Assembly: GCF_009914755.1 (NCBI RefSeq)
Contig: NC_060939.1
Length of the DNA stretch: 64,000 bases
Origin: the human T2T-CHM13v2.0 reference genome, Homo sapiens
Strand: one strand, 5' to 3'
Notes under the pieces: model-generated
The model's database searches: none
What the model saw: the letters and a program-made list of their open reading frames with translations, nothing else
Told to the model about the DNA's origin: nothing
Part shown: positions 9,583 to 12,144 of the stretch, one piece after another
Layout of the letters: every line of letters begins with the position of its first letter
Position numbering within the stretch: position 1 is the stretch's first letter
Translations under genes and position numbers: made by a program

Positions 9583-9880
9583 GGCCAGGTGCAGTGGCTC
9601 ATGCCTGTAATCCCAGCACTTTGGGAGGCTGAGGCAGGCGGATCACCTGAGGTCAGGAGTTCAAGACCAGCCTGGCCAACATGGCGAAACCCCATCTCTA
9701 CTAAAAATATAAAAATTAGCTGGGTGTGGTGGCGCTTGCCTGTAATCCCAGCTACTCAGGAGGCTGAGGCAGGAGAATCACTTGAACTCGGGAGGTGGAG
9801 GTTGCAGTGAGCCGAGATCACACCACTGCACTCCAGCCTGGAGACAGAGCGAGGCTCCGTCTCAAAAAAGGAAAAAAAAA
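9583..9880 (+). mobile_element. AluSx-like (antisense to CEP152)
   Basis: Full Alu with 'ggatcacctgaggtcaggagttcaagaccagcctggccaacatgg'. Confidence 0.95.
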
Positions 9881-10400
9881 ATTTAGTTTAAATAAGCTTG
9901 AGAATTCTTTTTTGTTTTCATTTCTAAATAAGCTTTTAGGATCATACTTTGTTCCCTAACTTGCTAGGGAACTATTAGCATTTCCTAATCTCATTTGCTA
10001 TTTAAGTAATAGAGGTAACAAATTATGGGCTTCTGAGACTGCCCATTACTTCTTTGTTTCTAATCCATGATATGGCTTATTTGTTAGTTATAAATATTAG
10101 TCTAGAGTTATAATCATTCCACAATATGAAATCAGATCATGGTTTCATTTTGAGGAATCAAAGAAGTGCCCAAAAAACTTGTTATATCCTGAGTTGGGTC
10201 GAAAAGTCAAGAGGTGGCTAAATTCCTAAAAATAAAACTGGTGTGGTAACTGCTAATAGCTCAATTCCAAAAGGTAAAATGGATGATTATGTAAGTGCCT
10301 GGCAAATAAAAATTACGTATCTGGTTCAAGAAGAATTGTCTTCTAAAGTTAGTACCACATTTTAAAAATGTGGTGACCAGAAAGAAATTTTAATCCACAC

Positions 10401-10586
10401 CTCTTGCTCTTCCTTATCCCAATGTGCTTTGGCTAAGATCACTTCACTTTCAACTTGCTGTTTAATATCAGTTTCTTGATCTTTCAGCCACTTGCTCTTT
10501 TCCATCATAAGTGTATCTTGGTACTTTTTTTCAAGTTCCACCTGCAGTTTGCTTACATATTCTTCTCTTTCCTCCAATAGCTGTCT
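10401..10586 (-). CDS. CEP152: Candidate additional in-frame CEP152 cassette exon ('17b', 186 nt/62 aa; alternative acceptor at 10580 gives 180 nt)
   Basis: tttaaag|AGACAG|CTA...GAG|gtgtgg; phase 0 at both ends; stop-free; RQLLEEREEYVSKLQVELEKKYQDTLMMEKSKWLKDQETDIKQQVESEVILAKAHWDKEEQE matches the CEP152 W-x22-W repeat. Whether it is used in human transcripts is not shown by the sequence. Confidence 0.7.
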
Positions 10587-11827
10587 CTTTAAACAAAATT
10601 CAAATAAACATCTCTCTACAACACTAACAGTCTCCAAGTTAAAACATGAACTTGTTGTGCGTGTCTTGGATAGCAAAAAAAATCCCTCTAACTTCTAAAA
10701 TGCACCTACCTAACTCATATTACAATTGTATAAATAAGCCTTAATGTGCATAGAAATGGCATCAGGAATGGGAATGTTGACCATCTTTGCCTTGTCTGCA
10801 AATTCATAGGCTTCACTGATTACTACCCAACCTGAAGGATTCCGTGTATATGATTTTTTCCCCCTTTCTCTCAATGAGCCAGGTTAACATGTGAGGAAAG
10901 TTCTGTGTGCTACTAAAAGCTTTAAAACTTGGAATTGAGCTCCTATTTAACCTGCAACCTGACTCAGCAAGTGTTTCAGAAAACAATGCATGAAACATAA
11001 AAAAACACCCTTTAACTCTTATTGTTACCTGACTCATATATTCTGTATCCAGGTTAAATTCCCTACCTAAAGCTAAGCTGCAGTAAAATGGCTTATGTCC
11101 TGCATGGAAGAGCTACCCCAGAAGTGCCCTCACTTGTTCTAGAGTTTAGTAACATTCTCCCATGTATGTGAAACATTTCCTTTAAAAAAAAAAAAAAGGT
11201 GTATTTTTGCCTACCTCTGAAAAATGTGAGAAGATTAGACAGTCTCCTAAATATAAAGATGTTTCAGTTCTGACTGGCTTATACTACTAAGGGCTTATAT
11301 AATTCTATAGTAAAAAACTAATGAATTCCCAGAGAGGGAAGAAATTAAACTTCTAATGCTTTAAGTACACTGGCCCTTTAAGTGAGGGGTGGGTTTGGAG
11401 GAGGAGTGTAACCACAAAAAGATAGCAAAAGGGAGCGTTTTAGGGTGATAAAACTGTTCTGTATCCTGACAAAACTATAAACGTGTTAAAGGTTTATAGA
11501 ACTATACGCCCAGTGGTGGGAGGAAGTCAATTTTACTGTATAACAATTAAAATTTTTTTTTAATTATACTTTAAGTTTTGGGATACACGTGAAAAATTTA
11601 ACCTCTAAGTTTGGTTTTTTTTTGAAGGATCAAATAGCAGTTTAACTTTTCTTCTTGGACTTGTGTACAAACACTCATGAGCCAAAATATCAGTCAATAG
11701 CAGATACTAATTGTAACTGACCCATTATATGAGATCATATTTTATAGTCAAATTGATTCTATTAAAAGTATCAGAAAATATTCCTGGAATGACCTCTTTG
11801 AGAAAATTCCTCTTATGTTCTTGCCAA

Positions 11828-12144
11828 TTTTTTTTTTTTTTTTTTTTTTTTTTTTTTTTTTTGAGAGACGGAGTTTCGCTCTGTCGCCCAGGCTGGAGTG
11901 CAGTGGCGCAATCTCGACTCACTGCAAGCTCCGCCTCCCGGGTTCACGCCATTCTCCTGCCTCAGCCTCCCGTGTAGCTGGGACTACAGGCGCGCACAAC
12001 CATGCCCGGCTAATTTTTGTATTTTTAGTAGAGACGGGGTTTCACCGTGTTAGCCAGGATGGTCTCGATCTCCTGACCTCGTGATCCGCCCGTCTCGGCC
12101 TCCCAAAGTGCTGGGATTACAGGCGTGAGCCACTGTGCCCGGCC
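11828..12144 (-). mobile_element. AluYg6 (young subfamily), TSD GCCAATTTTT
   Basis: Reverse complement carries the Yg6 diagnostics as I recall them (GAGACGGG, GGCATGG, GCGCG, CTACACGG, GAGTCGAG, GCGAAACT); ~35-nt pure A tail; TSD at 11823-11832 and 12145-12154. Confidence 0.85.

What the first reader, a model, noticed from the sequence alone, without database searches (positions are those of the whole stretch)
9583..12144. Young AluYg6 forms an inverted Alu pair that brackets only the hidden exon (TBXT-like skipping switch in a brain-size gene)
Seen in sequence: AluSx on + (9583-9880) and AluYg6 on - (11828-12144) are oppositely oriented, ~1.95 kb apart, and enclose only the candidate exon 10401-10586 (~0.5 and ~1.2 kb away). 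Established: inverted Alu pairs form pre-mRNA duplexes that can loop out exons (hominoid TBXT exon 6), promote back-splicing and attract ADAR editing; Yg6 expanded in the human lineage. Inference: the Yg6 insertion may have reduced inclusion of this exon specifically in humans, changing the isoform balance of a microcephaly gene, or may generate a single-exon circRNA. The weak donor (gtgtgg) could equally explain skipping on its own, so this remains a hypothesis.
Basis: partly seen in the sequence, partly recalled or inferred. Interest (0 to 1): 0.8.

Follow-up and report, generated by a model that had tools for sequence, protein, structure and literature searches.

The report
Human-lineage Alu pair around CEP152 exon
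Two oppositely oriented Alu repeats, one a young human-lineage copy, really do bracket a conserved optional exon of the microcephaly gene CEP152, but that exon is also skipped in species not expected to carry the young Alu, so a human-specific splicing switch is unproven.

Summary
An older Alu (9583-9879, +) and a young Alu (11833-12144, -) lie 1.95 kb apart. RefSeq lists only one exon between them. The young copy has all six AluYg6 diagnostic bases, a perfect 10-bp target-site duplication and a 30-35-nt tail. It matches element DY361 of the published AluYg6 catalogue (PMC1925064). In silico the two Alus form a ~270-bp duplex in the CEP152 pre-mRNA.

The "hidden exon" (10401-10586, 62 codons, in frame) is real and old. 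It appears with exactly these borders in 56 full-length CEP152 models from placental mammals, chimpanzee included. It is as conserved as its constitutive neighbours.

The TBXT analogy fails on one defining point: skipping did not arise with the insertion. Ninety-nine models from other species, 33 of them from non-human apes, join exon 17 directly to exon 18.

The most likely reading is an ordinary intronic inverted Alu pair, probably an RNA-editing substrate, with at most a modest effect on an exon that was already optional. No tool here gives primate DNA or RNA-seq, so any change in human inclusion is untested. Seven literature searches and the genome-wide inverted-Alu study (PMC13019027) do not mention this pair.

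The parts
11833..12144 (-). AluYg6 element, sense to CEP152: 281-nt body 11864-12144, then the A tail (T run on the + strand)
   Evidence: All six Yg6 diagnostic bases are present: 52A, 142A, 151C, 172A, 228T, 270A (against Table 1 of PMC1925064). It is identical by eye to row DY361 of Additional file 2. It has 21 CpG and two SRP-like halves.
11823..11832 (.). Target-site duplication of the Yg6, copy beside the tail (GCCAATTTTT on +)
   Evidence: exact 10-mer, repeated at 12145-12154.
12145..12154 (.). Target-site duplication of the Yg6, copy beside the Alu 5' end
9583..9879 (+).
   Evidence: It has 7 CpG and an interrupted A tail. Its decayed 11-nt duplication matches 9 of 11 at 9572-9582 and 9880-9890.
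10401..10586 (-). Conserved alternative cassette exon of CEP152 (186 nt, 62 codons, phase 0 to 0) between exons 17 and 18. The acceptor is ...tttaaag|AGACAG and the donor is GAG|gtgtgg.
   Evidence: Searches show the frame and splice sites. Searches show the same borders in 56 full-length mammalian CEP152 models, including chimpanzee isoform X3. One search shows conservation equal to the neighbouring exons.
10076..10586 (-). The only form of this exon in human RefSeq: same acceptor, read through the donor. The ORF stops 12 codons after the exon.
   Evidence: The hub's annotation table. One search gives the read-through ...EEQE VWIKISFWSPHF* and finds no canonical poly(A) hexamer within 30 nt of 10076.
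13253..13385 (-). CEP152 exon 17 (upstream constitutive neighbour), 1108 nt upstream of the Yg6
   Evidence: Annotation table.
8582..8863 (-). CEP152 exon 18 (downstream constitutive neighbour), 719 nt downstream of the older Alu
   Evidence: Annotation table.

Best explanation
A human-lineage AluYg6 retrotransposon, already catalogued as DY361, inserted in sense orientation into intron 17 of CEP152. It lies 1.95 kb upstream in the transcript of an older antisense Alu. Together they form an intronic inverted Alu pair that can fold into a ~270-bp RNA duplex. The loop encloses one ancient, conserved, optional 62-codon exon.

That exon was already mostly skipped before the insertion. It has weak splice sites and skipped isoforms across primates and other mammals. 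The pair is therefore most likely an ordinary intronic double-stranded RNA element. Such elements are typical A-to-I editing substrates. I expect no effect, or only a modest one, on inclusion of the exon. I do not read it as a switch that created the skipping.

Shown here: the anatomy, the subfamily, the predicted stem, the exon's conservation, and skipping in other species.

Inferred: absence from other apes (from the paper, not from DNA), duplex formation in vivo, editing, and the small size of any splicing effect.
For: Anatomy and target-site duplication.

Yg6 identity:
- 6 of 6 diagnostic bases.
- A 13-nt private motif occurs once in the 380-row alignment, in DY361. The full row matches the window copy by eye.

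Human-lineage expansion (PMC1925064 passages):
- 380 human copies and 1 chimpanzee copy.
- An Alu sits at the chimpanzee site for 9 of the 380. DY361 is not among the six of those that are named.

Stem:
- Cofold ddG is -277.8 kcal/mol with 256 intermolecular pairs. Twenty shuffled partners give -15.8 +/- 5.7.
- In the MFE fold of the whole exon 17 to exon 18 pre-mRNA (4804 nt), 269 of 317 Yg6 nucleotides pair with the older Alu, end to end.
- A model of the empty site is 368 kcal/mol less stable.

The exon is ancient and optional:
- Of 162 CEP152-related proteins fetched, 56 full-length models carry the cassette and 99 spliced models join exon 17 to exon 18 directly.
- Among non-human apes, 33 clusters skip the exon and 1 includes it.
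- Mean identity to human is 81.2% for the cassette, against 82.1, 81.3 and 77.4% for exons 17, 18 and 19.

Base rate (PMC13019027):
- 22,619 of 49,891 folded exon-flanking Alu pairs are inverted.
- Among inverted pairs, folding energy differs little between skippable and constitutive exons (d = -0.12).
Against: - None of the 15 human RefSeq transcripts has the cassette form, while chimpanzee isoform X3 does (hub table). Reduced inclusion in humans would predict exactly this.
- This is the tightest inverted pair in the window and the only one within +/-2 kb of an exon.
- Its complementarity (85% over ~300 nt) exceeds the 228 of 297 quoted for the TBXT pair that does cause skipping.
- In PMC13019027, 11 of 11 tested hominoid-specific pairs showed lineage-specific skipped isoforms. 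Exons with weak acceptors were reported as especially prone (abstract; section 23). The acceptor here, aaag, looks weak.
- Gene models are not quantitative. The protein database is clustered at 90% identity, so human or ape inclusion isoforms may be hidden inside the 101-member macaque cluster P0003.
Confidence: 0.65

Rival explanations
1. The Yg6 insertion completed a stem that loops out the cassette exon and measurably lowered its inclusion in humans. This shifted the CEP152 isoform balance.
For: - Stem prediction.
- The pair is at least as complementary as the TBXT pair.
- The acceptor is weak, and PMC13019027 reports that weak acceptors favour loop-out skipping.
- Human RefSeq has no cassette transcript among 15, whereas chimpanzee has one (hub table).
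- Before the insertion the older Alu had no inverted partner for 23 kb upstream in the transcript.
Against: - Skipping predates the insertion: 99 skipped models in other species, and 33 of 34 non-human ape clusters.
- The fetched gorilla (17), bonobo (5), orangutan (3) and gibbon (2) clusters also show no cassette model. The absence of a cassette model is therefore not peculiar to humans.
- The Yg6 has other near-equal partners: Alus at 4624, 24858 and 48008 with ddG -257 to -267 kcal/mol.
- The genome-wide effect of stems is small.
- A human-only codon change (Q to E) three codons from the donor is an alternative cis cause.
Confidence: 0.15
2. The pair mainly promotes back-splicing of the 186-nt exon, giving a single-exon circular RNA.
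For: Flanking inverted Alus are the recognised driver of exon circularisation (stated in PMC10901737). The stem brings the exon's own acceptor and donor close together.
Against: - No CEP152 circRNA turned up. The CEP152 + circRNA search found 8 papers and listed 7, none about such an RNA by title or abstract.
- The donor is not used in the only human RefSeq transcript that contains the exon (hub table).
- From recall, single-exon circles are usually made from longer exons.
Confidence: 0.08
3. The Yg6 is not a human-lineage insertion. It is an older Alu converted to Yg6 sequence, or it is shared with other apes.
For: In PMC1925064, 9 of 380 Yg6 elements have an Alu at the chimpanzee site. Three of those nine are not named in the text I could read. 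The element carries about 5 changes from its neighbours in the alignment, 4 of them at CpG, so it is not among the youngest copies.
Against: - DY361 is not among the six named cases.
- It has a perfect 10-bp duplication, a pure 30-35-nt tail and 21 retained CpG. These fit a recent insertion better than conversion of an old element.
Confidence: 0.03

Closest known systems
TBXT intron 5/6 AluSx1-AluY pair (hominoid exon 6 skipping; PMC10901737, passages read)
   Same: - A lineage-specific young AluY-type insertion lies opposite an older S-type Alu in the neighbouring intron stretch.
- Both Alus are more than 500 nt from the exon.
- The pair encloses a single in-frame exon.
- RNAfold predicts the Alu-Alu stem (here; Extended Data Fig. 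2 legend there).
   Different: - In TBXT the skipped isoform is hominoid-specific, and it disappears when either Alu is deleted.
- Here the skipped isoform is the common form in species outside the human lineage, and no deletion data exist.
- The young Alu is upstream here and downstream in TBXT.
Exon-flanking inverted Alu pairs surveyed genome-wide (Denisko et al. 2026, PMC13019027; abstract, passages, section 23 and a supplement search)
   Same: - The same class of feature: an inverted pair within their +/-5 kb window.
- A skippable exon with a weak acceptor.
- A long predicted stem.
   Different: - Their evolutionary set requires the Alu to be present in at least one non-human hominoid, so a human-only insertion falls outside it.
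[quoted passage not shown]
AluYg6 subfamily catalogue (Styles and Brookfield 2007, PMC1925064)
   Same: The element is one of the 281 copies with all six diagnostic bases. It matches row DY361.
   Different: [quoted passage not shown]
- Its location table (Additional file 1.xls) could not be read. Locus identity therefore rests on sequence identity alone.
AluYg6 in EDEM3 (PMC6094920, passages read)
   Same: Another human-lineage Yg6 inside a gene, proposed to alter that gene's transcripts.
   Different: - The mechanism there is termination of a transcript at the Alu tail, not Alu-Alu pairing.
- CEP152 is not mentioned in that paper.

Membership tests
AluYg6 subfamily | Six diagnostic changes from AluY: 52A, 142A, 151C, 172A, 228T, 270A | tested here: met
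   The positions come from Table 1 of PMC1925064. All six bases were read in the 281-nt body.
AluYg6 subfamily | Dimeric 7SL-derived body of about 281 nt with an A tail and a target-site duplication | tested here: met
   Two SRP-like halves, a 281-nt body and a 35-T run, and a duplication matching 10 of 10.
AluYg6 subfamily | Listed in the published complete catalogue | tested here: met
   Row DY361 of Additional file 2. The chromosomal location table was unreadable.
Lineage-specific loop-out exon-skipping Alu pair (TBXT type) | Two Alus in opposite orientation in the intron stretches on either side of one exon | tested here: met
Lineage-specific loop-out exon-skipping Alu pair (TBXT type) | The pair is predicted to form the dominant stem in the pre-mRNA | tested here: met
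   269 of 317 Yg6 nucleotides pair with the partner in the 4804-nt MFE fold. ddG is -277.8 against -15.8 +/- 5.7 for shuffles. This is in silico only.
Lineage-specific loop-out exon-skipping Alu pair (TBXT type) | One partner is absent from outgroup species (empty orthologous site) | not testable with these tools
   No primate DNA is held. Indirect support comes from PMC1925064: most Yg6 sites are empty in chimpanzee, and DY361 is not among the six named exceptions.
Lineage-specific loop-out exon-skipping Alu pair (TBXT type) | The skipped isoform appears only in the lineage that carries the insertion | tested here: not met
   The exon 17 to exon 18 junction occurs in 99 spliced models of other species, including 33 non-human ape clusters. 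These are gene models, not quantitative.
Lineage-specific loop-out exon-skipping Alu pair (TBXT type) | Skipping depends on both Alus (deletion or stem disruption) | not testable with these tools
   This needs CRISPR or a minigene.
Inverted-Alu-driven exonic circRNA | An observed back-splice junction joining the exon's donor to its own acceptor | not testable with these tools
   No RNA data are available. The literature search found nothing.
ADAR-edited intronic inverted Alu duplex | Clusters of A-to-G mismatches in RNA over both Alus | not testable with these tools
   No RNA data are available. Only the duplex prerequisite is met.

The most novel reading that the evidence does not exclude
A fixed, human-lineage AluYg6 insertion completed a 270-bp RNA stem around an ancient, conserved 62-residue coiled-coil cassette of CEP152 and lowered its inclusion in humans. 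It may also have diverted the exon into the truncated read-through transcript or into a circRNA. If so, the isoform balance of a centriole-duplication and microcephaly gene differs between humans and other apes.
Probability: 0.12. Interest if true: 0.7.

Novelty: new member of a known kind. Interest (0 to 1): 0.35.

Why it matters
CEP152 scaffolds PLK4 and CEP63 at the centriole, and its loss causes primary microcephaly and Seckel syndrome. A human-only change in its isoforms would interest people who study brain-size evolution. The hypothesis can be tested with public RNA-seq and one CRISPR deletion.

As it stands, the feature is one of tens of thousands of exon-flanking inverted Alu pairs. 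The exon it brackets was already optional before the insertion.

The more solid result concerns the exon itself. It is a well-conserved eutherian coding cassette that human RefSeq lists only as a read-through terminal exon.

Tried and rejected
- Literature searches found nothing on this pair, this cassette or a CEP152 circRNA:
  - CEP152 + Alu: 34 papers, 15 listed, none relevant by title or abstract.
  - CEP152 + circRNA: 8 papers.
  - CEP152 + human-specific + alternative splicing + chimpanzee: 2 reviews.
  - CEP152 + exon skipping: 14 papers, 13 listed, covering patient variants and an unrelated mouse exon 23 event.
- One search was badly framed. With min_terms set to 2 it returned papers that do not mention CEP152, so it says nothing.
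- The 2026 CEP152 variant paper mentions 'Alu' only as the enzyme AluI.
- I looked for an internal duplicate of the cassette in the window. tblastn gave only weak coiled-coil similarity (best E 0.29), so exon duplication is rejected.
- Pfam finds no domain in the cassette. In the chimpanzee isoform it lies between the PLK4-binding region (1-58) and the CEP63-binding coiled coil (1269-1319).
- The sub-threshold Rfam hits to mir-1268 and mir-3135 inside both Alus are Alu-derived look-alikes below the gathering score. I do not treat them as genes.
- The MFE fold of the empty-site model still shows 150 scattered long-range pairs around the exon. The 'pairs enclosing the exon' measure is therefore not specific, and I do not lean on it. 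That model is also one T short of the true empty site.
- I did not test the 'AluSx' label, splice-site scores (no scoring model was available) or population frequency of the insertion.
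Full report
**What is in the sequence**

CEP152 runs on the minus strand. Its intron 17 is 4389 nt, between exon 17 (13253-13385) and exon 18 (8582-8863). The intron holds two Alu copies in opposite orientation.

The older copy:
- It lies on the plus strand at 9583-9879 and is antisense in the transcript.
- It has 7 CpG and an interrupted A tail.
- Its target-site duplication is decayed, matching 9 of 11 at 9572-9582 and 9880-9890.

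The young copy:
- It lies on the minus strand and is sense in the transcript. Its 281-nt body is at 11864-12144 with 21 CpG.
- A run of 35 T at 11828-11862 includes up to 5 T of the duplication, so the tail is 30-35 nt.
- Its 10-bp duplication is perfect, at 11823-11832 and 12145-12154.

Evidence that the two are an inverted Alu pair:
- The repeat finder reports the arms as 193 nt at 85% and 64 nt at 89% complementarity.
- blastn gives 85.05% identity over 301 nt.
- Each copy gives two sub-threshold matches to the metazoan SRP RNA model, as Alu dimers do.

The gap between the Alus is 1947 nt. In the hub's RefSeq table the only exon between them is 10076-10586.

**Subfamily and age of the young copy**

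Table 1 of Styles and Brookfield 2007 (PMC1925064; passages and section 5 read) gives the six AluYg6 diagnostic bases. The window copy has all six at positions 52, 142, 151, 172, 228 and 270.

A 13-nt motif private to this copy occurs once in the paper's 380-row alignment (Additional file 2), in row DY361. The printed row agrees with the window copy along its whole length by eye. The element is therefore already catalogued. The location table (Additional file 1.xls) could not be read, so locus identity rests on sequence alone.

What the paper reports:
- There are 380 human copies and one chimpanzee copy.
- In most cases there is a gap at the chimpanzee orthologous site.
- Nine elements have an Alu at the chimpanzee site. 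Six of these are named, and DY361 is not among them. The other three are cited from an earlier study that I did not see.
- The subfamily expanded three to four million years ago.

Judged against the two neighbouring rows shown, DY361 carries about five changes, four of them CpG transitions. It is not one of the youngest copies and is probably fixed. I could not check its population frequency. No primate DNA was available, so I did not confirm the empty site directly.

**The exon between the Alus**

The exon 10401-10586 is 186 nt with no stop codon. It starts and ends in phase 0 and fits in frame between exons 17 and 18. The acceptor is ...tttaaag|AGACAG and the donor is GAG|gtgtgg.

A protein search with its 62 residues found 58 proteins with E at or below 0.001 among 93 candidates. 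Fifty-six of them are full-length CEP152 models. They come from primates, carnivores, ruminants, whales, rabbit, squirrels, xenarthrans and afrotherians.

In all of these models the cassette sits at exactly the proposed borders. An example is chimpanzee isoform X3, which reads ...QTQEK|RQLLEE...[13 protein letters not shown].

Mean identity to human over those 56 proteins is 81.2% for the cassette. The values for exons 17, 18 and 19 are 82.1, 81.3 and 77.4% (proteins under 1000 residues left out). It is therefore a real, selected coding exon of placental mammals.

Pfam sees no domain in it. It lies in the central coiled-coil region, between the PLK4-binding region and the CEP63-binding region.

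Human RefSeq lists only a read-through form, 10076-10586. Its reading frame stops 12 codons past the donor. No canonical poly(A) hexamer lies within 30 nt of its annotated end.

**Is skipping tied to the Alu?**

A second search, with exon 18, found 360 proteins with E at or below 1e-10. The best 120 were listed and fetched, giving 162 distinct proteins with those.

Classification of the 162:
- 57 carry the cassette. One of these is an unspliced genomic ORF.
- 100 lack the cassette but have exon 18. One of these is a genomic ORF, which leaves 99 spliced exon 17 to exon 18 junctions.
- 5 did not match my patterns.

The skipped junction occurs in the following clusters, by the names given:
- chimpanzee, 6 clusters
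- bonobo, 5
- gorilla, 17
- orangutan, 3
- gibbons, 2
- also macaques, baboon, colobines, New World monkeys, lemurs, rabbit, bats, whales and sloth

Among non-human apes only one cluster (chimpanzee X3) includes the cassette.

Skipping is therefore ancestral and common in species that, per the catalogue paper, should lack this Yg6. A felid-like genomic ORF reads E|VW across the donor, which implies GTNTGG. The unusual donor is therefore old as well.

This is where the TBXT analogy breaks. In TBXT the skipped form is specific to the lineage with the insertion, and it vanishes when either Alu is deleted (PMC10901737, passages).

Caveats:
- Gene models do not measure inclusion.
- The database is clustered at 90% identity. 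Human or ape inclusion forms could be hidden in the 101-member macaque cluster.

**Can the pair fold?**

Yes, in silico.
- Cofolding the Yg6 body with the older Alu gives a gain of 277.8 kcal/mol and 256 intermolecular pairs. Twenty dinucleotide-shuffled partners give 15.8 +/- 5.7.
- In the minimum-energy fold of the whole 4804-nt stretch from exon 17 to exon 18, 269 of the 317 Yg6 nucleotides pair with the older Alu. The pairing runs from 12144:9583 to 11848:9880.
- A model of the empty site folds 368 kcal/mol less stably.
- Complementarity of about 85% is higher than the 228 of 297 quoted for the TBXT pair.

The Yg6 also has other good partners among the plus-strand Alus:
- The Alus at 4624, 24858 and 48008 give -257 to -267 kcal/mol.
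- The Alu at 18339 gives -154 kcal/mol.
- These lie 6 to 36 kb away.

The Yg6 is the only minus-strand Alu in the first 33 kb of the window. Its arrival therefore created every inverted pairing in this part of the gene. Six of the ten exons with an inverted pair within +/-5 kb owe that pair to it.

**How unusual is it?**

Locally it is the closest inverted pair, and this is the only one of 21 exons flanked within +/-2 kb. As a class it is common.

Denisko et al. 2026 (PMC13019027; abstract, passages and section 23 read) report:
- They folded 49,891 exon-flanking Alu pairs, of which 22,619 were inverted.
- Among inverted pairs, folding energy differed only slightly between skippable and constitutive exons (d = -0.12).
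- Inverted pairs are enriched around skippable exons, especially exons with weak acceptors.
- Eleven of 11 hominoid-specific candidates showed a skipped isoform in human fibroblasts but not in Vero cells.

Their evolutionary set requires the Alu to be present in a non-human hominoid, so this copy is outside it. CEP152 occurs neither in the text nor in the one supplement held.

**Reading**

Most likely (0.65) this is an ordinary intronic inverted Alu pair. One arm is a catalogued human-lineage insertion. The pair lies around an exon that was already optional, and any influence on that exon is small.

- Human RefSeq has no cassette transcript.
- The pair is tight and strong.
- The acceptor is weak.

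I give that hypothesis 0.15, and 0.12 for the fuller evolutionary version. A rival cis cause is visible. The last residues of the exon are KEQKE in most mammals, KEQQE in chimpanzee and KEEQE in human. The human form is a human-only codon change three codons from the donor. A single-exon circRNA (0.08) and a non-human-specific origin (0.03) are less likely.

**In print?**

The Alu itself is in print, as DY361. Its pairing with the older Alu, and any link to the cassette, did not turn up in the searches, nor in the papers read. The search was badly framed and says nothing.

Statements about ADAR editing of inverted Alus and about typical circRNA exon lengths are recalled, not taken from a call.

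Noticed in passing
window 10401-10586 (-): The cassette is a conserved eutherian coding exon: 56 full-length models, mean 81.2% identity to human, equal to its constitutive neighbours. Human RefSeq lists it only as a read-through exon, 10076-10586. This looks like an annotation gap, or a real human peculiarity worth checking with junction reads.
   Followed up: partly
window 10401-10412 (-), last four codons of the cassette: The exon ends KEQKE in most mammals, KEQQE in chimpanzee and KEEQE in human. The human form is a human-only Q-to-E codon change three codons from the donor. It could affect exon definition independently of the Alus.
   Followed up: no
window 10581-10586 (-): A second AG lies 6 nt inside the exon (AGACAG). 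Models from macaque, marmoset, capuchin, seal, sheep and armadillo start at ...EK|LLEE and lack the first two residues (RQ). The exon therefore appears to have a tandem alternative acceptor.
   Followed up: partly
window 10076-10400 (-): The annotated 3' end at 10076 has no canonical poly(A) hexamer within 30 nt upstream. Only ATTAAA at 10394 and AATGAA at 10149 were found, so the end of that RefSeq exon may not be a true cleavage site.
   Followed up: partly
window 1-40000: Alu orientation is strongly clustered. The plus-strand copies lie at 4624, 9583, 18339 and 24858, with a fragment at 16397. Six minus-strand copies lie at 33355-39317. The Yg6 is the lone minus-strand copy in the first 33 kb. 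Pairing of the Yg6 with the Alu at 18339 would enclose exons 14-17, which total 498 nt and are in frame.
   Followed up: partly
window 9717-9844 and 11885-12012: There are sub-threshold Rfam matches to mir-1268 and mir-3135 inside both Alus (34-49 bits against gathering scores of 80-83). They are Alu-derived look-alikes, not evidence of miRNA genes.
   Followed up: no
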